From assembly GCA_963718615.1 (NCBI GenBank), contig OY970368.1, forward strand, positions 4,928,001 to 4,992,000: DNA of 64,000 bases. The letters run 5' to 3'. This DNA is from an uncultured cyanobacterium. Lineage in GTDB: Bacteria; Cyanobacteriota; Cyanobacteriia; PCC-9006; JAAUQQ01. Shown piece by piece: positions 5,500 to 33,952 of the stretch. Under the pieces are notes generated by a model, which ran no database searches, was not told the origin of the DNA, and worked only from the letters and a program-made list of their open reading frames with translations. The position numbers and the translations under genes are program-made. The stretch's first letter is position 1. Each line of letters starts with the position of its first letter.

Positions 5500-6909
5500 A
5501 TGACACAGCAAAAATTTGGCGTGATTGGCCTCGCCGTCATGGGGGAAAACCTTGCCCTCAACGTAGAACGCAACGGTTTTCCCATCGCGGTCTATAACCG
5601 CAGCGCTGACAAAACCGACACCTTCATGGCCGAACGCGCCCAAGGCAAGCAAGTTAAAGCCACCTACTCCCTGGAAGAATTTGTTGCCGCCCTCGAACGC
5701 CCTCGCCGCATCCTCATCATGGTCAAGGCCGGTGCGCCTGTGGATGCGGTCATCCAACAGCTTCGGCCTCTGCTCGATGACGATGACATGATCATTGACG
5801 GTGGCAACTCGCTTTATACTGACACCGAACGCCGGGTCAAGGAACTCGAAAGCACGGGTCTCCGTTTCATCGGTATGGGCGTCAGCGGGGGTGAAGAAGG
5901 GGCACTCAATGGCCCTAGCCTCATGCCCGGTGGCACCAAAGCCGCCTACGAAGCCATCGAGCCCATCGTCACCAAAATTGCAGCCCAGGTGGATGACGGA
6001 CCCTGCGTCACCTACATCGGCCCCGGTGGCTCCGGCCACTACGTCAAGATGGTTCACAACGGCATTGAGTATGGCGACATGCAGCTCATCGCCGAAGCCT
6101 ACGACATCCTCAAAAACGTCGGTGGATTGAACCACACCCAACTCCACGAGGTCTTCGCCCAGTGGAACACCACGGATGAACTGGATTCGTTTTTGATTGA
6201 AATCACGGCAGATATTTTCACCCAGCTAGATCCGGATACCGGCAAGCCCTTGGTGGAGCTCATTCTCGATTCTGCGGGCCAAAAGGGCACAGGCCTCTGG
6301 ACGGCGGTGAATGCCCTGGAAATGGGTGTGGCGATTCCGACGATCGCCGCTGCGGTAAATGCGAGGGTAATGTCTTCGCTCAAGGCTGAACGCGTTGCCG
6401 CATCGAAGGAGCTCAGCGGTCCTAACCCCAGTCTCCATGGCGACACCCAGACACTGATTGCCATGGTCCGGGACGCCCTTTACTGCTCGAAGATTTGTTC
6501 CTATGCCCAAGGCATGGCGTTGATCAAGCGGGCTTCGGACGAGTTCAACTACAACATCGATTTGGGCGAAACTGCGCGTATCTGGAAAGGCGGCTGTATT
6601 ATTCGGGCAAGGTTCTTGAATAAGATTAAGCACGCCTATGATGAGAATGCAGGGCTGGCGAATCTGCTCTTGGCTCCGGAATTTAAGCAAACGATTCTCG
6701 ATCGCCAAAATGCTTGGCGGGAAATCGTCGCCCTCGCAGCCAAGAACGGCATCCCCATTCCAGCGTTCAGTGCCTCCCTGGATTACTTCGATAGCTATCG
6801 CCGTGCCCAACAGCCCCAAAACCTGACCCAGGCCCAGCGGGACTACTTTGGCGCACATACCTACCAACGCATCGACAAGGAAGGCACCTTTCACACCCAT
6901 TGGTTTTAG
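5500..6909 (+). CDS. gndA: 6-phosphogluconate dehydrogenase (NADP-dependent, decarboxylating)
   Basis: GLAVMGENLALN, KMVHNGIEYGDMQ, QKGTG and QRDYFGAHTY motifs. Confidence 0.98.
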   Translation: MTQQKFGVIGLAVMGENLALNVERNGFPIAVYNRSADKTDTFMAERAQGKQVKATYSLEEFVAALERPRRILIMVKAGAPVDAVIQQLRPLLDDDDMIIDGGNSLYTDTERRVKELESTGLRFIGMGVSGGEEGALNGPSLMPGGTKAAYEAIEPIVTKIAAQVDDGPCVTYIGPGGSGHYVKMVHNGIEYGDMQLIAEAYDILKNVGGLNHTQLHEVFAQWNTTDELDSFLIEITADIFTQLDPDTGKPLVELILDSAGQKGTGLWTAVNALEMGVAIPTIAAAVNARVMSSLKAERVAASKELSGPNPSLHGDTQTLIAMVRDALYCSKICSYAQGMALIKRASDEFNYNIDLGETARIWKGGCIIRARFLNKIKHAYDENAGLANLLLAPEFKQTILDRQNAWREIVALAAKNGIPIPAFSASLDYFDSYRRAQQPQNLTQAQRDYFGAHTYQRIDKEGTFHTHWF

Positions 6910-6937
6910 GCAAACGCAACCATCGCGAAATGATTGC

Positions 6938-7022
6938 GTAGGTTGGGTTGAGGCACGAAACCCAACAAGCCAAGGGCAAATGCTTAGGCTTGTTGGGTTT
7001 CACTTCGTTCTACCCAACCTAC
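6938..7022. repeat. Inverted doublet of GTAG-type REP sequences (REPIN-like)
   Basis: GTAGGTTGGGTTGAGGCACGAAACCCAACA at 6938-6967, with an inverted near-copy at 6991-7022 ending ACCCAACCTAC. Confidence 0.8.
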
Positions 7023-7077
7023 TGCTCTACTTAGCTAATACAATTGATGCTGCCTAAGCAGATTTTGCAAGAATTAA

Positions 7078-7480
7078 TGGAGCTGAGCGGAATCGAACCG
7101 CTGTCCGCATTAGTTATTTACTCCTAGCTCGTTCACAGGTTTAGCCCCTCTAACCCTTGGGGCGGGAACCGTCTATTATCCCTGACGATGGGATTCTTTG
7201 ATGAGTTCTTAATTCAGGGCTGTACCAAAGACCTTCCCTGAAAGCATCCGTTGGGGTTGGTGCTCTAGATCCTTAACGGAGTCAAACCCAGAGCCTCACG
7301 GTCTACTAAAGAGAGTAGAGTTTTTTACGCAGCTGCTAGAGCAGGCGTGCGCACGCGAGAGAAGGATACGATGTTGTTCGCATTTACTTTTTTTTGAGCC
7401 ATTGATTTACGAGAGTTAGCTCGCTCTCGACCTGTATCACACGGTAGCTTTCACTAACACGTCGAAACCATTACAGCCCC
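7078..7480 (-). ncRNA. ssrA: tmRNA (transfer-messenger RNA)
   Basis: 5' end GGGGCTGTAATGGTTTCGAC and 3' end GGTTCGATTCCGCTCAGCTCCA. The tag frame at 7381-7325 encodes ANNIVSFSRVRTPALAAA*. Confidence 0.97.
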
Positions 7481-17629: not shown

Positions 17630-17702
17630 CGAGCATGGCAGGATTCGAACCTGCGACCCTCAGAACCGGAATCTGATGCTCTATCCACTGAGCTACATGC
17701 CC
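17630..17702 (-). tRNA. tRNA-Arg(CCG)
   Basis: GGGCATGTAGCTCAGTGGATAGAGCATCAGATTCCGGTTCTGAGGGTCGCAGGTTCGAATCCTGCCATGCTCG; anticodon CCG. Confidence 0.97.
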
Positions 17703-27988: not shown

Positions 27989-28139
27989 GGCAGTCTCCCA
28001 AACGACCTCAGGTGATGAGCAAAGCGGACTCGATACAGAAAGTCTAGGCGAAAGCTGATGTTCGCAATTCTATAAGGGTTCATCTGCGATTTTGCCGGAG
28101 TTTATTGAGAAAACCCCAATTTGTTTGGGAATCGCAACG

Positions 28140-28171
28140 ATTACCCCATTACCCCATTACCCCATCACCCC
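28140..28171. repeat. Short tandem repeat (ATTACCCC)n
   Basis: Three exact units and one degenerate unit, downstream of the transglutaminase gene. Confidence 0.7.
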
Positions 28172-28177
28172 CTTTCC

Positions 28178-29035
28178 CTATTCCCTTTCCCCTTCTTCCA
28201 CCCGAATCCTCAACTCGTACTCCATCTCCGACGTCACCCCACTTCCCTGAAACCCTCCCTGCACCGGAGCCGCCGAGGCCGGATAGGGCGTTGCCACCAA
28301 TGCCACATGGTCATCGGCCACCGCCAAACCATGGGTTGGGTCAAAGCCACGCCAGCCCGCCCCCGGTAAATAGACCTCCACCCAGGCATGCAAATACCGC
28401 TGCTCAAACTCCGGGTCTCCCTTCTGATAACCACTGACAAATCGCACCGCTAATCCCACCGTGCGGCACACCTCCATAAACAAAACCGCCACATCTCGAC
28501 AGGACCCTGATCGCTTCCGCCAAGTCACCCCCGCTGGCCAAGGCGAACCCATTTCTCGCATCTGGTAGCTACATTCTTGATAAAGCAATTGATTGAGCTT
28601 CGTGAGGAAAGTCACGACATTACCCTGGGCCTCAACGGACAAATCTTCTGCGATCTGCACCGCTTCAGCCGCCAAGGGATTGTCCTTGAGATAGGGCTGG
28701 AGCTGACCTTGTAGTGAGGCGGGGTAGTCTACGGGAAACTCGGTAGCCCAGAGTTCTAGCAAAAAGTCAAAGGGATTGTTACGCAGCGTTTCGACCCTAG
28801 AGGTTGCGGTGAGGATCAGTTGGTCTGTCGGGCCTTGAAAACTCAGCCGAGTTAAATTGTTACCATCCAAATCTAGACAGTCTGTACGCTGACTGGGTTC
28901 GGGAGCAACCTGTAGGGCAAACTCTACCAGCCGTTGCGTCAGGTCACAGCGGGGCCGGAGCCGCACCCAGTGGGGGGTGAGCTGCACCGGCTGGCTGTAG
29001 CGGTAGGTGAGGCTGTGTTGGATCGAGAAGCGCAT
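28178..29035 (-). CDS. Transglutaminase-family protein
   Basis: Catalytic-triad motifs GSCRD, HAWVEVY and GFDPT. Confidence 0.92.
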   Translation of the reverse strand: MRFSIQHSLTYRYSQPVQLTPHWVRLRPRCDLTQRLVEFALQVAPEPSQRTDCLDLDGNNLTRLSFQGPTDQLILTATSRVETLRNNPFDFLLELWATEFPVDYPASLQGQLQPYLKDNPLAAEAVQIAEDLSVEAQGNVVTFLTKLNQLLYQECSYQMREMGSPWPAGVTWRKRSGSCRDVAVLFMEVCRTVGLAVRFVSGYQKGDPEFEQRYLHAWVEVYLPGAGWRGFDPTHGLAVADDHVALVATPYPASAAPVQGGFQGSGVTSEMEYELRIRVEEGERE

Positions 29036-29106
29036 GGCAATGAACCGCTTGAGCGGAGTCTGAGGAACGACGCTAAGGTCGAAGCGTTCTGAGCGATAAG
29101 TCTGTT

Positions 29107-30066
29107 CTACACCGGCTCTAGGGCAAAAAATGTATCGAACATATGGTTGCCAACCTCGTTGACGCCGAGCTGTACCTCGTTGAGGAATTCGTGGAGCCCC
29201 TGTTCAATAATCTCGTCGATGGTGACATAGTCCAGCTCTGAGCAGAGTTTACCGAGAGCACGCTCTGCCGGGTTGCTCCAGGAGCGATTGGGGGTATCGG
29301 TGATGCGGTACAGACATTGCTGAGCCCGAATCAGACAGCTACGAATGGCGCGGGGAAATTCCCCATCCAAAATCAAGAACTGGGCGACGCCGCTGGGCCG
29401 GATGCGGTGATCGCCTTGACCTTTACGATACATTTCGTAGGCACTGGCGGATTTGAGCAGCGCCATCCACTGGATTTCGTCGATCGCGGTCCCCACGTCT
29501 TCCACGGAAGGTAGCAAAATAAAATACTTCACATCCAAAATCCGCGAGGTTTTGTCGGCCCGCTCTAGCAGCCGTCCCACCTGACCAAAGTGCCAGCCCT
29601 CGCCATGGCTCATGGTGCTGTCCATAATTCCCGCAAACAGATGGCTGGCGAGCTTCACCTCATTAAAAAAGTCCGAAGACTCCATCAACGACTCTAGGGG
29701 CTGCTTCGAGGCATCCCGCACCATCATGTAGAAATCATTCACCTGCTCCCACATTTCCGAGGAGATGATCTCCCGAACCGATCGCGCATTTTCCCGCGCC
29801 CGCTGCAAACAGGACAAAATCGAGTTGCCATAGTCGGGATCGAACGTCAGAAACTTTAGCGCCGTTTCTGTATCGAACTCCCCATAGCGCTCTTGAAACA
29901 GCTCCATATCCCCTGTGGTTCGAAGAATGGGCTGCCATTGCTGGGTAAAGCCGGGGGGCGAGTCGAGCAGCAGATTGACGTTGACATCAATGAAGCGGGC
30001 AACGTTCTCGGCCCGTTCAACGTAGCGGTTGAGCCAGTAGATGGAATCGGCAACGCGGCTGAGCAT
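29107..30066 (-). CDS. Alpha-E domain protein
   Basis: MLSRVADSIYWLNRYVERAEN and GRLLERADKT motifs. Confidence 0.92.
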   Translation of the reverse strand: MLSRVADSIYWLNRYVERAENVARFIDVNVNLLLDSPPGFTQQWQPILRTTGDMELFQERYGEFDTETALKFLTFDPDYGNSILSCLQRARENARSVREIISSEMWEQVNDFYMMVRDASKQPLESLMESSDFFNEVKLASHLFAGIMDSTMSHGEGWHFGQVGRLLERADKTSRILDVKYFILLPSVEDVGTAIDEIQWMALLKSASAYEMYRKGQGDHRIRPSGVAQFLILDGEFPRAIRSCLIRAQQCLYRITDTPNRSWSNPAERALGKLCSELDYVTIDEIIEQGLHEFLNEVQLGVNEVGNHMFDTFFALEPV

Positions 30067-30183
30067 GGCGGTATGGGTGCAGAAAATGGCAAGCGGTCAG
30101 TCTAGGCTGGCTTTAGCTTACAGAATTTCTTCCAGAATTTCTTCCAGAACTTCGGGTCTTGGGTGCAGAGAGGGGGCGATCGC

Positions 30184-30400
30184 TCCAACCCCCTTGCCCT
30201 CAGACGTCGTGCAACGGCTTATCGAAGATGGCAGAATCACTATGCCAAAGTTATGGAGGGATTACAGAGAGCTTTGAATGTGCAGAGATTAATACACAAC
30301 TGGGTCAGACCTCATGGTCGCTTTACTCAGAAGAAGACCACCCCTGCCATGGCTATGGGATTGATCGATAGGCCGCTGGCGATCGCAGAGATCCTTACCC
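30184..30400 (+). pseudogene. C-terminal fragment of an IS1-like transposase
   Basis: ALRRRATAYRR.QNHYAK...LQRAL..IHNWVRPH...TTPAMAMGLIDRPL; no N-terminus present. Confidence 0.7.
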
Positions 30401-31010
30401 CAATGGCAGCGGCAGCCTTTATTCAGCAGCCCTATGCCCCAGAGGCGGTGCTTTTGCGGAGGTGGGATGATTTAGCCAAGGAGCCCCAGGCCCCAACCCC
30501 AGTCCTTGAGCATTTCATCTAATCCTCCGAGAGACCCCTGGCTTTAGCCATGGGGAGGGATAGGAGCGCGACCGTGAGGGAGCAATTTGTGTTTCGCCCC
30601 AGAAGCTAAGACCTAAATCTACAAAATTTTTATGGAGCATAGCTTTCAACTATTCTAGAGTGGGTATGGAAAGCAAAAACCAAGCTTTCCCTTGCACCTT
30701 GAAAACTGAAGTTATGGGGTTCTGGTCAGGAATGCTTGGCCAGGTAAAAACTTCAAGCAACGAGTAGATGTCTTAGAGACACCGTACCGTGGGGCTCACG
30801 GAATCGGACCTCTGCAAAGGGGTGAAAGCCTGTGGACTTGAGTAAGACGGGAACATAGCAACGTTTGTTGTGGTGTACGCATCGTGAATGAAACAGGAAA
30901 TCTTTGGAGCGATCCGGAGAATCCCCCGGTTTCAACCGTGGGGAGTAGTCAATCCCATTCTCCAAACATGTCTGCAAACCCCTCAGCCTCGCTCGATGCC
31001 GAAGCGCTAA
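30401..31010 (+). pseudogene. Remnant of a phosphonate-associated HD-domain (PhnZ-like) gene, interrupted by the element at 30519-30952
   Basis: AAAFIQQPYA..AVLLRRWDDLAK..APTPVLEHF; removing the insert continues in frame as IPILQTCL...*. Confidence 0.65.
30519..30952 (+). mobile_element. Non-autonomous IS200/IS605-family element retaining an omegaRNA-type right end
   Basis: Left-end hairpin 30535-30555 preceded by GAGA; right-end hairpin 30923-30943 preceded by GAAT; terminal TCAA. Inserted after TTCAT with no target duplication. TnpB-tail remnant RTVGLTE..KACG. Confidence 0.88.
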
Positions 31011-31444
31011 CGCTACGCCCTGCCACCCCAGACGATTTGCCCCTGTTGATCGAGCTTTATGCGGCCATGGATGGCGAAGCGCCCTTGGCCCTAGGAGCGG
31101 TTGAAGCAGTTTTTCAGCAAATTCAGGCCATTCCCCACGCTCAAATTTATCTGGCTGCTTTGGGTCCAGACGTGGTGGGAACGTTCACGTTGTTACTGGC
31201 CCCGACCATGATGCACCGGGGAATTCATCGGTTTGCCTTGCTGGATGCGGTGACGGTTTTACCGCAGTTTCGCGGTCAAGGGATGGGCAAGGCGATGGTT
31301 GTAGCCGCACTCCATTTGGCCCAGGAGGCGGGTTGTTATAAGTTGATGTTGTCGTCGAATTTGCAACGCGATCGCGCCCACGCGTTCTACCGTTCCCTTG
31401 GCTTTGAACAGCACGGTTGGAGTTTTAGTCTAACAATATTCTAA
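30968..31444 (+). CDS. GNAT N-acetyltransferase (PhnO-like)
   Basis: FRGQGMGK and GCYKLMLSSN..R.RAHAFY motifs. The ORF-track start at 30884 lies inside the mobile element. Confidence 0.88.
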   Translation: MSANPSASLDAEALTLRPATPDDLPLLIELYAAMDGEAPLALGAVEAVFQQIQAIPHAQIYLAALGPDVVGTFTLLLAPTMMHRGIHRFALLDAVTVLPQFRGQGMGKAMVVAALHLAQEAGCYKLMLSSNLQRDRAHAFYRSLGFEQHGWSFSLTIF

Positions 31445-31736
31445 ACGGGCCAGGGATTCTAAATGGGCCGGGAACAGTAAACGTTTTCAGTCCAAACGGA
31501 TGTCTGAATCGTCCCTACCCTTTTGCTTGACGCAGATTGTTCTAAGCCTCACCCAGAGAAGGTTTGGCCCAATTCAGCAAGCAGTTTATGCCGAAAACCT
31601 GAGCATCCGCGTCTCCCGATGGGTACTTTAGATACAGTATCGTTTTCCAACCTTGATCACAAACTTCTGAACCGCAAACCTCTGACCGCAAACTTCCTTA
31701 GCCACATCTATCCTAAGCAATCCCCAGGGTGGCATC

Positions 31737-32987
31737 ATGACAGCTTTGGTGCAGCTTCCAGACCATTCAAACTCCAACTCATCCCCCATTGTCCAAGCCG
31801 TAGTGCGGCAAATCCAGCGGGCTGCCAGTGATCAAATCACAGGGAGCCTCAACTTTGATACGGTGCATGTGCCGCGCATGCGACTTTTTTTTGTCATGGG
31901 ACGGTTAATTTGGGCCGGGGGTGGCGTTCATCGTTTGCGTCGCTGGAATCGCCTGCTCAAAACCTTTTGTCCGGAGGCGATCGCCCACATCACCGCCCTT
32001 TCCGTCAATCTAGACACAGCCTTTTGGGAATACACGGTCCTGGGCCAGCTCGTGAAGGCAGGCCACATTAGCCGAGATGTAGCCCGTTCGATTATCCAGG
32101 CCAACATCGTCGAAGTCCTGTTTGATATTGTTCAGGCTTCCAAGCTGATCGAAAAATTTAGCTACACCAAAACCAATCTCCTCAATCCCCAGGACACCAT
32201 CACACTGATTGCCCCAGAAACGCTGATTCAGGATTTAGAGCGGCAGTGGGGCCAATGGTGTGAAGTGAATTTGGCTCCCTATTCCCCCAACTTGGCTCCA
32301 GCAGTCACACGACCTGGGGCACTCCAATCCCAGGTGACGCCTCAGACCTATGAAAAACTGATGCAGATGCTTAAGGGTCACCTGTCTTTGCGAGAGCTGG
32401 CGCTACTGTTGCAAAAGGATGTGTGTCACTTTAGTCAGTCAATTATTGCCTACGAGCAACAGGGCATTGTTCAGCTCCAAGTGATTCCGGACTTGGGGGG
32501 GACGACTGTTACACCCACAGCCGCAGCCCATTCCAGCGGGAGATCCACGTCTGCCCAAGAGGCCCTAAGCAATCTGCGCCGTACGATTAACCAGGTCACG
32601 GTCCGAGCCAAGGAACCGCCTTTGGTTATGTGTATTGATGACAGTCCGATTATTTGTCAGCGTTTACAGCAAATTGTCGAGCGAGCGGGCTATCGCTATA
32701 CCAGCATTCAAGACCCGATTCAGGCCCTGCCACTGCTGCTTTCGCAAAAGCCCGATTTGATTTTTGTTGACTTGGTCATGCCGGTCATTGGAGGCTATGA
32801 GTTGTGTAGCCAAATCCGTCGATTGCCTTCATTTCAGGACACACCGTTGATTATTTTTAGTGGCAATATGATCGATCGTATTCGCGCCAAACTCGTACGG
32901 GCAAACGATATTCTGGCGAAAGATGTTCCATCAGAACAAATTACTGCCACGATTGAGCGCTGGCTACCGCTCCATGTGGATCCCTAA
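31737..32987 (+). CDS. PatA-family response regulator
   Basis: N-terminal PATAN-like region (GGVHRLRRW.R) and C-terminal REC domain (CIDDS, FVDLVMP). Confidence 0.85.
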   Translation: MTALVQLPDHSNSNSSPIVQAVVRQIQRAASDQITGSLNFDTVHVPRMRLFFVMGRLIWAGGGVHRLRRWNRLLKTFCPEAIAHITALSVNLDTAFWEYTVLGQLVKAGHISRDVARSIIQANIVEVLFDIVQASKLIEKFSYTKTNLLNPQDTITLIAPETLIQDLERQWGQWCEVNLAPYSPNLAPAVTRPGALQSQVTPQTYEKLMQMLKGHLSLRELALLLQKDVCHFSQSIIAYEQQGIVQLQVIPDLGGTTVTPTAAAHSSGRSTSAQEALSNLRRTINQVTVRAKEPPLVMCIDDSPIICQRLQQIVERAGYRYTSIQDPIQALPLLLSQKPDLIFVDLVMPVIGGYELCSQIRRLPSFQDTPLIIFSGNMIDRIRAKLVRANDILAKDVPSEQITATIERWLPLHVDP

Positions 32988-33952
32988 GGTCCATCGGCCA
33001 AGGCTTGGGCTGCTTCAGCCACGAGCGCGGAGACAAAGGGCAAAATCCGTTCATTGTCGCTATGCTCGGAGCCCTCGGTAAAAATAACTAAGGTGTAGGG
33101 TAAACCACCAGGAACCTCGACATAGGCCGCATCATGACGGACACGGCTCATCCAGCCAGCCTTGGAACAGCACTGGGCTCCGGTGGGGAGACCTTCACCG
33201 ATGAATCCCCCGATTTGATTTTCGGGATCCGGTTTCCAGGCGGTGGGATCGAGCGATCGCCCCATCCAGCCTAACAGCCGTTGAGAAGCTGAGGCCGAAA
33301 CCGCGACGCCCCCGGCTATGCTATGCACCAGTCTTGCCACAGCATCCGTGGTGAGGACATTACGATTTTCGTAGTTTTCACCGTAAAAGGCCCGCTCGCG
33401 ACCGTAGGGGCCGTCTCCCCAGGTTTTTTGGTTGATATTGCAACTTTCCAGTTCTTCCCAGCCCAGCGACTGATAGTAGCGATTAACAATATTGCGCTGA
33501 TACTGCCAAGTCTTAAAGGGCTCCGGCGGTAGCTCTGGACCGCTCGTCGTGCCGGTGAGCACATCCACAATTAAGCCCGTGCCGTCATTGCTCGAATCCA
33601 CAATCATGTCCCGCGCCGCCCGTTCAATTTCCGGCGTCAGGCTGAGCATGTCCTTCTCCACCCATTCGAGCAGGGCCACCGCATAAAACAGCTTGACGAC
33701 GCTGGCGGGATAAATACATTCCACACCGCGATAGCTATAGCCTCGGGGCTGCTGGAGCCAAAAATCGTTGGCGGCGATCGCCCCTCCCGTATTCATCGGA
33801 AAGCCCGGATCATAGACCACCCAGGTGAGGGCAATTTGGTTGCGGGCTAGGCTAGGAAACTGGGCGAGGGTAGTTTGGAGGATGCGATCGCCCCACTCCG
33901 TCAGCGGCTCATCTTTTTTGCGGAAAAAAGGCATGGCAAGTTCAGGGGACAA
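32984..33952 (-). CDS. Serine hydrolase (class A beta-lactamase-like)
   Basis: PASVVK, DSSND and SKAG motifs. Confidence 0.88.
   Translation of the reverse strand: MSPELAMPFFRKKDEPLTEWGDRILQTTLAQFPSLARNQIALTWVVYDPGFPMNTGGAIAANDFWLQQPRGYSYRGVECIYPASVVKLFYAVALLEWVEKDMLSLTPEIERAARDMIVDSSNDGTGLIVDVLTGTTSGPELPPEPFKTWQYQRNIVNRYYQSLGWEELESCNINQKTWGDGPYGRERAFYGENYENRNVLTTDAVARLVHSIAGGVAVSASASQRLLGWMGRSLDPTAWKPDPENQIGGFIGEGLPTGAQCCSKAGWMSRVRHDAAYVEVPGGLPYTLVIFTEGSEHSDNERILPFVSALVAEAAQALADGP

What the first reader, a model, noticed from the sequence alone, without database searches (positions are those of the whole stretch)
30650..30782. Promoter, boxB/boxA-like antiterminator and kissing-loop leader replace tnpB inside the element
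Seen, in order: a -10-like TAGAGT (30656-30661); hairpin GGAAAGC-N9-GCTTTCC (30668-30690); GCACCTTGAAAA (30694-30705); hairpin CTGGT/GCCAG whose loop TGCTTG (30733-30738) is exactly complementary to the loop CAAGCA (30754-30759) of the next hairpin (ACTT/GAGT); then TGTCT/AGACA. Established: cyanobacterial rrn spacers carry a boxB helix followed by boxA (GAACCTTGAAAA-like), and boxA also protects untranslated CRISPR transcripts in some bacteria. Inference: this is not a simple internal deletion but a dedicated cassette for expressing and stabilising or processing a stand-alone omegaRNA. This is the best candidate for an undescribed system in the window.
Basis: partly seen in the sequence, partly recalled or inferred. 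Interest (0 to 1): 0.8.

Follow-up and report, generated by a model that had tools for sequence, protein, structure and literature searches.

The report
Conserved leader of orphan guide RNA
The flagged stretch is the front part of a non-coding RNA made by a small gene-less jumping element, and this front part is a structured, strongly conserved module found in many cyanobacteria, carrying a copy of the ribosomal-RNA "boxA" signal whose role here is still untested.

Summary
They lie inside a 433-bp tnpB-less IS200/IS605 (PATE-type) element, 30520-30952, inserted after TCATC. It has a 98% identical second copy and a third insertion context. The 3' 170 nt are a decayed tnpB 3' end, which is the usual TnpB guide-RNA (omegaRNA) scaffold. 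The flagged 5' part is not tnpB-derived. It is a conserved module: a hairpin, then G[AC]ACCUUGA[AC]AAC, then two nested helices P1/P2. A covariance model finds it in 74 of 151 genomes of one cyanobacterial order. In 138 loci examined it was never inside a tnpB-carrying element. In this genome it is joined to three different omegaRNA scaffolds. P1/P2 covary strongly (96-98% paired). The proposed kissing loops and second hairpin are not supported (64-76%). The boxA resemblance is real: the cyanobacterial rrn spacer has GAACCTTGAAAACTGCATA. Its function is untested, and the genome has no Rho. Verdict: a new variant of a known kind, an orphan-omegaRNA PATE with a dedicated leader that had no Rfam 15 match.

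The parts
30515..30519 (+). TCATC, the target/transposon-adjacent motif flanking the left end. It is shared by all copies and by the full-length relatives.
   Evidence: The third context in run X8 has its loose end at 30515.
30520..30952 (+). 433-bp tnpB-less IS200/IS605 (PATE-type) element with no ORF of 40 aa or more on the + strand spanning it.
   Evidence: The second copy is at G000:C1:637242-637679 (98% identity).
30535..30555 (+). Left-end subterminal imperfect hairpin CCCCTGGC-TTTA-GCCATGGGG. The left end is 88% identical over 72 nt to the tnpB-only IS copies of this genome.
30620..30627 (+). TACAAAAT, an alternative -10 candidate. It sits at the position of the tnpB promoter -10 in the full-length relatives (about 40 nt after GGGAGCAAT).
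   Evidence: position only; not tested
30656..30661 (+). TAGAGT, a weak -10-like hexamer at the place where relatives have an extended -10 (TGNTANNNT).
30668..30690 (+). Leader hairpin GGAAAGC / AAAAACCAA / GCUUUCC ('boxB-like'). The stem differs entirely among relatives while the loop is conserved.
30694..30706 (+). GCACCUUGAAAAC, an rrn boxA-like motif. It matches the cyanobacterial spacer boxA GAACCUUGAAAA at 11 of 12 positions.
30707..30755 (+). P1/P2 domain. P1 is 30707-13 with 30749-55. P2 is 30722-28 with 30737-43. A conserved internal loop (..GGGGUU / GUAAA) lies between them.
   Evidence: 96.1% and 97.8% of cells paired
30770..30781 (+). Small hairpin TGTCT-TAG-AGACA. Relatives have other complementary sequences at this place.
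30784..30952 (+). omegaRNA-type scaffold, a decayed 3' end of a family-A tnpB. The first hairpin is CCGTGGGGCTCACGG (30787-30801). The right-end hairpin is 30923-30943 and the element ends ...GTCAA at 30952.
30953..30972 (+). Flank that would be the guide of the read-through transcript (inferred). It overlaps the start region of the GNAT gene (ATG at 30969).
   Evidence: (RNA contigs run 7 and 71 nt past the right end in other contexts)

Best explanation
Window 30650-30782 is the 5' leader of a non-coding RNA of about 290-330 nt. The RNA is encoded by a 433-bp gene-less IS200/IS605 element (a PATE).

The RNA's 3' 170 nt are an ordinary TnpB guide-RNA (omegaRNA) scaffold, derived from the 3' end of a lost tnpB. 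Transcription runs through the right end (30952) into the flank, which becomes the guide. TnpB supplied in trans would load this RNA and cut the empty donor site (TCATC + guide) after TnpA-mediated excision, so that the element is restored by recombination. This genome holds two 395-aa family-A TnpB copies with matching ends, and 7 strong Y1 TnpA matches (9 in all).

The leader itself is a dedicated, mobile expression and maturation cassette that took the place of tnpB. It consists of a promoter, a stem-loop, an rrn-type boxA, and a covarying two-helix domain (P1/P2).

Most likely mechanism (inferred): the hairpin plus boxA load NusB-S10/Nus factors on RNA polymerase, as at rRNA operons. That would give fast, pause-resistant transcription and orderly co-transcriptional folding of a long untranslated structured RNA through the right-end hairpin. 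P1/P2 would give the orphan RNA a stable structured 5' end.

Shown here: the anatomy, the homology, the conservation, the covariation and the absence of tnpB in cis. Inferred: promoter use, Nus binding, TnpB loading in trans.

The confidence given is for the whole statement. That this is the leader of a PATE-borne orphan omegaRNA I hold at about 0.85. The Nus/boxA step alone I hold at about 0.3.
For: - Element ends and copies.
- The 3' half is homologous to tnpB 3' ends.
- The same holds for two other subfamilies of this genome, each against its own TnpB family.
- Module distribution: 18 of 151 genomes (class sample, model R1); 74 of 151 genomes and 51 of 80 genera (one order, model R2). An exact pattern found at least 120 stretches; 74 of the 80 listed carry cyanobacterial names.
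- No tnpB in cis in 58 + 80 loci.
- No module in 10 tnpB loci with filters off.
- Right-end hairpin plus G(T/C)CA(A/C) lies 240-350 nt downstream in at least 52 of 58 loci.
- P1/P2 covariation.
- Extended -10 in 82 of 155 leaders against a shuffle mean of 15.4.
- boxA: the published cyanobacterial spacer boxA is GAACCTTGAAAA (PMC8461337, passage). This genome's spacer reads GAACCTAGAAAACTGCATAG after a hairpin. G031 and G055 spacers read GAACCTTGAAAACTGCATA.
- In five genomes the 13-mer GMACCTTGAMAAY has 71 matches against 7 for the reversed control. Of these, 43 are in the module and 10 in rrn-type spacers.
- The rare rrn variant CCTAG occurs in 7 of 401 genomes. It is also carried by element subfamily iii, and only in hosts that have it (G000, G004).
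- NusB is present, as are TnpA and TnpB.
- RNA contigs of three studies cover parts of the element at 95-99% identity, and two run past the right end.
- PATEs with omegaRNAs acting through TnpB in trans are described in PMC10055086 (Discussion passage).
Against: - No binding, TSS or processing data exist. Contigs cannot show RNA ends, and one RNA-library contig (30598-30820) starts upstream of both -10 candidates.
- The window's own -10 is poor.
- The genome has no Rho and no terminator-like site in 30400-31100, so what would be 'antiterminated' is unclear.
- Position 2 of the motif is C in 30 of 53 sequences, A in 15 and T in 8, whereas the rrn spacers seen here have A.
- Host tracking of the CCTAG variant rests on one lineage. 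Other subfamilies in the same hosts keep CCTTG. Some copies deviate from their host's rrn (G031 L046 CCCTA; G055 L053 CCTCG).
- Four other CCTAG-rrn genomes have no element.
- A6 was fitted to the model's structure, which leans the pair counts towards it.
- TnpB was sought only by tblastn with this genome's own TnpBs (three of the four families, where the family-B query was faulty).
Confidence: 0.5

Rival explanations
1. The leader is a TnpB-facing extension of the guide-RNA scaffold. It would bind TnpB or pair with the scaffold. For example, the near-invariant GGGUUC (41 of 53) could pair with the scaffold's GAAUCC. The likeness to boxA would be coincidental.
For: - The module is always linked to an omegaRNA scaffold and right end.
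- Its conserved single-stranded motifs are near-invariant, so pairing partners cannot be tested by covariation.
- GGGUUC (30717-22) and GAAUCC (30919-24) are complementary with one G-U.
Against: - The same module is joined to three scaffolds whose cognate TnpB families are at most about 31% identical to each other.
- tnpB-carrying relatives work without it and lack it.
- The module is more conserved than the scaffolds. That points to a conserved host partner rather than to co-evolving TnpBs.
Confidence: 0.2
2. The leader is an RNA processing or stability device: a self-cleaving or RNase-recognised domain that sets the 5' end of the orphan omegaRNA, or a 5' cap-like structure against RNase E/J. 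Nus factors would play no part.
For: - It is a structured, covarying domain with conserved unpaired purines.
- One RNA contig from a size-fractionated library starts at 30681, inside the leader.
- The whole RNA folds better than shuffles (z = -2.9).
Against: - No Rfam 15 family (ribozymes included) matches at E <= 1 in 28000-33000, or at E <= 10 in six related loci.
- Contig ends are not RNA ends.
- This reading does not explain the 13-15-nt identity with rrn boxA plus CUG.
Confidence: 0.15
3. One reading: two adjacent hairpins whose loops (TGCTTG / CAAGCA) kiss.
For: - The 6-nt complementarity is exact in the window.
- A 3-4-bp core (GCU/AGC) is kept in most short-loop members. There are a few double changes, e.g. 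GCA/UGC in L044 and L088 (75.7% paired, with 0 of 500 shuffles reaching it).
Against: - The second hairpin is paired in only 64.0% of cells, and the outer 2 bp of the kiss in 63.4%.
- The same bases form P1 with 96.1% pairing and six of seven pairs showing double changes.
- The shuffled expectation for the 4-bp core is already 69.5%.
- Members with long P2 insertions lack the complementarity.
Confidence: 0.05
4. The segment has no RNA-level function. It would be a deletion scar or a DNA-level (single-strand) feature of transposition.
For: - A 165-bp mini derivative (L012) lacks the whole RNA part yet keeps the ends.
- G-T pairs are also tolerated in top-strand DNA hairpins.
Against: - Conservation and covariation hold across 51 of 80 genera of one order.
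- A promoter signal is conserved upstream.
- RNA-library contigs cover it.
- It is absent from tnpB-carrying relatives, which transpose with the same kind of ends.
Confidence: 0.04

Closest known systems
PATEs (palindrome-associated transposable elements): gene-less IS200/IS605 derivatives that keep an omegaRNA used by TnpB in trans (PMC10055086, passages read)
   Same: - Left and right ends with subterminal hairpins.
- No ORF.
- Several copies after a fixed target motif.
- Ends shared with tnpB-carrying ISs of the same genome.
- The 3' part is an omegaRNA scaffold.
   Different: Here the space of tnpB is filled by a conserved, covarying leader of about 115-150 nt with its own promoter signal. 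The leader is shared by elements with different ends and scaffolds in many cyanobacteria. I found no description of such a leader in the passages read or in my searches.
TnpB omegaRNA / reRNA (IS200/IS605; RAGATH-18-derived reRNAs of IS607 TnpB, PMC11061315, abstract in listing only)
   Same: - The scaffold overlaps the tnpB 3' end and right end, and the guide is the flank.
- 30784-30952 aligns with tnpB 3' ends.
- Two related loci give sub-threshold RAGATH-18 matches (about 24 bits against a gathering score of 44.9).
   Different: There is no tnpB in cis, an extra 5' domain is absent from tnpB mRNAs, and no Rfam family reaches its threshold.
rrn boxB-boxA antitermination / RNA-chaperone signal (cyanobacterial 16S-23S spacer boxA GAACCTTGAAAA; PMC8461337 passage)
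   Same: - A hairpin, then 4-5 nt, then G[AC]ACCUUGA[AC]AAC(UG), in an untranslated structured transcript.
- Up to 15 nt are identical with the spacer boxA plus CUG.
   Different: The motif lies on a mobile element in front of a guide RNA. Position 2 is mostly C. No binding was tested, and no D4/V3 context follows it.
boxA in CRISPR leaders of enterobacteria
   Same: A Nus-dependent signal in front of a long untranslated guide-RNA precursor.
   Different: That case counters Rho. This genome has no Rho RNA-binding domain match.

Membership tests
IS200/IS605 non-autonomous element (PATE) | Left and right ends with subterminal imperfect hairpins, homologous to those of a protein-coding IS of the family | tested here: met
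   The left end is 88% identical over 72 nt and the right end 77-79% over about 64 nt to two tnpB-only ISs of this genome. The hairpins are at 30535-55 and 30923-43.
IS200/IS605 non-autonomous element (PATE) | No protein-coding gene inside | tested here: met
   No + strand ORF of 40 aa or more spans the interior. The three frames carry stops.
IS200/IS605 non-autonomous element (PATE) | Several copies with identical ends at different sites, each after a fixed short target motif | tested here: met
   Two genomic copies and a third context in run X8 all begin after TCATC and end ...GTCAA. Relatives show the same TCATC.
IS200/IS605 non-autonomous element (PATE) | A Y1 (HUH) TnpA available in trans | tested here: met
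   9 PF01797 matches in the genome, 7 of them strong. Whether they recognise these ends was not tested.
TnpB omegaRNA | The scaffold corresponds to the tnpB 3' end plus right end | tested here: met
   Alignments A7, A8 and A9. Homology starts at the first hairpin (CCGTGGGG..CACGG).
TnpB omegaRNA | The transcript runs through the right end into the flank (guide) | tested here: inconclusive
   RNA-library contigs extend 7 nt (X1) and 71 nt (X3) past 30952 in other contexts. Contigs cannot prove RNA ends or exclude DNA.
TnpB omegaRNA | Bound by TnpB and guides DNA cleavage next to the TAM | not testable with these tools
   Only the co-occurrence of family-A TnpB (PF01385, PF07282, PF12323) with matching ends was shown.
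TnpB omegaRNA | Match to a curated omegaRNA family in Rfam | tested here: not met
   No hit at E <= 1 in 28000-33000. Only sub-threshold RAGATH-18 matches appear in two related loci.
rrn-type boxA (Nus factor site) | Sequence consensus GAACCUUGAAAA of cyanobacterial rrn | tested here: met
   The window matches 11 of 12. Among 53 distinct sequences, 5 match exactly, 27 match G[AC]ACCTTGAAAA and 39 have the core. rrn spacers were read.
rrn-type boxA (Nus factor site) | Preceded by a boxB-like hairpin, promoter-proximal, in an untranslated RNA | tested here: met
   The hairpin 30668-90 ends 4 nt before the motif. This genome's spacer has CTGG..CCAG plus 5 nt plus boxA.
rrn-type boxA (Nus factor site) | Binds NusB-S10 and changes elongation or termination | not testable with these tools
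   NusB domain genes are present. No binding data exist.
rrn-type boxA (Nus factor site) | Counteracts Rho-dependent termination (as in CRISPR leaders) | tested here: not met
   No Rho_RNA_bind match in a 100% complete genome. The control matches 9 of 14 reference genomes.
Kissing-loop complex | Two hairpins whose loops stay complementary across homologues | tested here: not met
   The second hairpin is 64.0% paired and the loop-loop pairs 63-76%. The competing helix P1 is 96.1% paired.

The most novel reading that the evidence does not exclude
Gene-less IS200/IS605 elements of cyanobacteria carry a portable rRNA-operon-type boxB-boxA loading site for Nus factors, plus a new structured P1/P2 domain. 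In about half of the members there is also an H-type pseudoknot. The transposon would thereby borrow the host's rRNA antitermination and RNA-chaperone machinery to make orphan guide RNAs for TnpB in trans. This leader class had no Rfam 15 match and turned up in none of my literature searches.
Probability: 0.25. Interest if true: 0.8.

Novelty: new variant of a known kind. Interest (0 to 1): 0.6.

Why it matters
Orphan omegaRNAs are known, but how a guide RNA is expressed, folded and kept stable once its tnpB mRNA context is lost is not. Three observations suggest a general solution that selection has kept:
- The same leader of about 115-150 nt is spread over half of the sampled genomes of a large cyanobacterial order.
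- It is joined to different scaffolds.
- It is never found with tnpB in cis.

If the boxA copy really recruits Nus factors, this would be the first case of a transposon guide RNA using the rRNA transcription machinery, and it would occur in a phylum without Rho. That would bear on what Nus-boxA complexes do besides opposing Rho. The leader could also be a ready-made part for expressing TnpB guides in cyanobacteria.

Tried and rejected
- **Rfam:** no family at E <= 1 in 28000-33000. Only tmRNA and tRNA appear in the whole window at gathering score. At E <= 10 in six related loci there is no preQ1 or ribozyme family, only sub-threshold RAGATH-18.
- **Coding origin of the leader:** I looked for tnpB codons (RuvC-III 'D.NAA.NI') in P1/P2 by eye and with the model on 10 tnpB loci with filters off. 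Nothing was found, so I rejected it.
- **Capture from the host's rrn:** the 901-nt query hits no rrn locus. Only the short motif is shared.
- **Pairing of the boxA-like motif with the right-end loop:** GTTTCAA against TTGAAA fits in the window, but it is not kept in relatives whose loops are TTTA, TTCA or CTACA. Rejected.
- **K-turn reading of the internal loop:** there is no GA/AG signature, so I do not claim it.
- **Host tracking of boxA variants:** only one lineage is informative. I keep it as a hint, not a test.
- **Whole-RNA family alignment**: too gappy across subfamilies for a mutual-information scan. Only P1/P2 and the ends came out of RNAalifold.
- **RNA runs:** runs X1-X3 hold small shares and were laid as contigs, so no TSS, strand or level can be read. 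Parts without cover mean nothing.
- **Errors of mine:** the family-B TnpB query was faulty (2 aa), which I repaired. In one search the G139 coordinates were wrong, so that row is uninformative. The first pseudoknot script used too loose a module pattern and was replaced.
- **Literature:** searches for TnpB with cyanobacteria / omega RNA / non-autonomous, PATE + TnpB (41), boxA + TnpB (68), TnpB + Anabaena/Nostoc/Synechocystis (77) and antitermination/NusB + TnpB (81) found no description of this leader. Supplements were not opened (closed) and may hold omegaRNA catalogues that bear on this.
Full report
**1. What is at the coordinates**

They lie in a short repeat. A search of the window's own complete genome (6.1 Mb, one contig) with 30100-31000 finds a second copy that is 98% identical, covering exactly 30515-30952 (G000:C1:637242-637679). 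A contig of run X8 holds the same 438 nt in a third context, with loose ends at 30515 and 30952.

The first five bases, TCATC, are also found before the left end of related elements. I therefore read them as the target/TAM and the element proper as 30520-30952. No + strand ORF spans the element. Rfam 15 has no match at E <= 1 in 28000-33000.

**2. The element is a tnpB-less IS200/IS605 derivative**

Two 1.3-kb elements of the same genome (L009, L010) encode only a 395-aa protein with OrfB_IS605, Cas12f1-like TNB and HTH_OrfB_IS605 domains. They share the left 72 nt (88%) and the right ~64 nt (77-79%) with the window element.

Beyond the BLAST match, the window's 30784-30952 aligns with the 3' coding end and right end of this tnpB and of a 70%-identical tnpB from another genome. 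The shared blocks are CCGTGGG.C.CACGG, G.CTGTGGA, GTAAGAC, ATGAA.CAG.AA, GGAGAATCCCC and GGGGAG.AGTCAA. That is the place from which TnpB guide RNAs (omegaRNAs) are made (established knowledge; PMC10055086 passages).

The genome also has 9 Y1 transposase (PF01797) matches, 7 of them strong. It has about 13 TnpB-like loci in at least three families. A 165-bp mini derivative (L012) keeps 150 nt of the left end and only the last bases of the right end.

**3. The flagged part is not tnpB-derived and is widely conserved**

BLAST against 60 relatives gave matches of 70-79% to 30694-30899 in three other cyanobacterial families. From four sequences I built a covariance model of 80 positions. It hit 18 of 151 genomes sampled across the class. 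A second model, built from 30 hits, found the module in 74 of 151 genomes (51 of 80 genera) of another order, with up to 17 copies per genome.

Of the 80 listed, 74 carry cyanobacterial names, 4 are 'uncultured bacterium', and 2 are short MAG contigs under other names.

Several results show that tnpB does not accompany the module:
- In 58 loci around model hits, tblastn with this genome's TnpBs found a TnpB-like gene within 1.5 kb only once. That one (L067) is on the other strand (the family-B query was faulty).
- In the 80 named loci, four hold a TnpB-like gene within 8 kb and none has the module inside a tnpB element. The nearest (L178) has its own right end between tnpB and the module.
- Run with filters off on 10 tnpB-carrying loci, the model gave nothing better than E = 2.5, apart from the separate short element in L067.
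- In at least 52 of 58 loci the module is followed, 240-350 nt on, by a right-end hairpin and G(T/C)CA(A/C).

This genome holds three subfamilies of such short elements: the window type (2 copies), one at 4.26 Mb, and two copies at 0.04 and 0.39 Mb. Their 3' halves are homologous to the 3' ends of three different TnpB families of the same genome. In each case the homology starts at the first scaffold hairpin. The same leader is thus joined to different scaffolds and ends.

**4. Structure**

On 58 aligned hits (53 distinct; the alignment is fitted to the model), the nested helices P1 (30707-13/30749-55) and P2 (30722-28/30737-43) are paired in 96.1% and 97.8% of cells. Twelve of 13 pairs show changes on both sides. 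There are 213 double-change cells against 59.7 in shuffles (0 of 500 reach it), and slid controls pair at most 46.6%.

His second hairpin (ACTT/GAGT) is paired in 64.0% of cells. The loop-loop pairs are paired in 75.7% (4 bp) and 63.4% (2 bp). For the 4-bp core the shuffled expectation is already 69.5%, although no shuffle reaches the observed value and a few double changes exist. A short loop-tail contact therefore cannot be excluded, but the two-hairpin kissing model is not supported.

The hairpin 30668-90 has wholly different stems in relatives (GAGATG/CATCTC, ATATCGAA/TTCGATAT, ACCTAC/GTAGGT and others) around a conserved loop ..GAAAACCAAG... The small hairpin 30770-81 is likewise replaced by other complementary sequences. 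The whole RNA, 30667-30952, folds at -97.2 kcal/mol, z = -2.9.

**5. The boxA-like motif**

Among the 53 distinct sequences, A9, C10 and C11 are kept in 53, 52 and 52. The core ACCTTGA[AC]AA[CT] is present in 39, G[AC]ACCTTGAAAA in 27, and the exact 12-mer GAACCTTGAAAA in 5.

A taxonomic paper gives boxA = GAACCTTGAAAA and D4 = CTGCATA for 16S-23S spacers of Thermoleptolyngbya (PMC8461337, one passage read). I read the spacers themselves:
- this genome...CTGGGCAATTAGTCCAG TGAAA GAACCTAGAAAACTGCATAG
- its rrn leader: GAACCTAGACAGAG after a hairpin
- G031 and G055: GAACCTTGAAAACTGCATA; G004: GAACCTAGAAAACTGCATA

The element therefore shares the hairpin-spacer-motif layout, and up to 15 nt including the following CUG. 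In five genomes the 13-mer GMACCTTGAMAAY has 71 matches against 7 for the reversed control. Of these, 43 lie in the module, 10 in rrn-type spacers and 18 elsewhere.

The rrn variant CCTAG is rare, found in 7 of 401 genomes. The only module sequences with CCTAG are subfamily iii of this genome and its relative in G004, and both hosts have CCTAG rrn. That is one lineage. Other subfamilies in the same hosts keep CCTTG, and four other CCTAG genomes have no element. I treat it as a hint only.

NusB-domain genes are present. Rho is not found, and there is no terminator-like site in 30400-31100.

**6. Promoter and RNA evidence**

TGNTANNNT occurs in the 100 nt before the motif in 82 of 155 distinct leaders (shuffle mean 15.4, maximum 27; reversed control 24). 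Of these, 58 lie at -80 to -61.

In the window copy the homologous place holds only TAGAGT, and the sigma-70 scan finds nothing. TACAAAAT at 30620-27 is a second candidate, at the position of the tnpB promoter of full-length relatives.

RNA-library contigs from three studies match at 95-99%: 30681-30952 plus 7 nt (X1, size-fractionated), 30598-30820 (X2), and 30776-30952 plus 71 nt of another flank (X3). These show presence in RNA libraries and read-through past the right end. They do not show a TSS, the strand, or freedom from DNA.

**7. Reading**

The finding is the leader of an orphan omegaRNA gene on a PATE. PATEs that encode omegaRNAs for TnpB in trans are in print. What I did not find described is this leader: it has no Rfam match and did not turn up in five literature searches (supplements closed).

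Its higher conservation than the scaffolds, and its union with several scaffolds, point to a host partner. The boxA identity makes Nus factors the best candidate, with a chaperone or anti-pausing role rather than an anti-Rho role. This is inference. The rivals are a TnpB-facing extension and a processing or stability domain, and neither is excluded.

**8. Beyond the window type**

About half of the leaders (70 of 152 distinct) carry, before the motif, a 5-bp hairpin whose loop NGGU can pair with ACCN after an A-rich tail. The variable pair is G-C in 34, A-U in 15, C-G in 2, G-U in 3 and unpaired in 16. The topology recalls class I preQ1 riboswitches (recalled, not tested), but no Rfam match appears at E <= 10.

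Noticed in passing
related loci, e.g. L050:1420-1500, L047:1440-1500, L105 (G000:C1:4259990-4260075): 'Type 1' leaders (70 of 152 distinct) have an H-type pseudoknot before the boxA-like motif. It is a 5-bp stem with loop ..NGGUAAUCAA, then an A-rich tail, then ACCN. The N-N pair covaries: G-C 34, A-U 15, C-G 2, G-U 3, unpaired 16. The topology resembles preQ1-I aptamers (recalled). No Rfam hit at E <= 10.
   Followed up: partly
window 30953-31444: The right end of the element stops 16 nt before the ATG (30969) of a GNAT acetyltransferase gene (Pfam PF00583). The presumptive guide therefore overlaps its ribosome-binding and start region, and transcription leaving the element would run into this gene.
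   Followed up: no
window 30163-30522: A 119-aa ORF with a transposase-like C-terminal look (..HNWVRPHGRF..), but with no Pfam match, ends in a TAA formed by the first three bases of the element. The element therefore inserted into the 3' end of this (fragmentary) ORF.
   Followed up: partly
G000:C1:4121375-4121540 (L012, minus strand): A 165-bp mini derivative. It has 150 nt of the left end (81% identical to the window element) joined directly to the last ~15 nt of the right end, with no omegaRNA part.
   Followed up: partly
L105:789-979 (G000:C1:4260488-4260678): Just downstream of the subfamily-ii short element lies a group I intron match (46.5 bits, just under the gathering score of 50). 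What looks like a tRNA 5' half stands before it, probably the tRNA-Leu intron common in cyanobacteria.
   Followed up: no
L029:1500-1560 (G033:C125): A fragment of the P1/P2 module abuts a group II intron reverse-transcriptase ORF. An Rfam group II intron domain lies about 900 nt further on.
   Followed up: no
G105:C1:155855, C55:116, C143:71; G271 and G154, several places: 18 of 71 matches of the boxA-like 13-mer lie neither in rrn-type spacers nor in the module as I defined it. Some are repeated (three identical copies in G105) and may be further leader variants.
   Followed up: no
window 7075-7480 (-), 17630-17702 (-): A tmRNA gene (128 bits) and tRNA-Arg(CCG). ARAGORN also calls a second, overlapping, starred tmRNA at 6458-7171 (ARAGORN's asterisk mark; not examined).
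   Followed up: no
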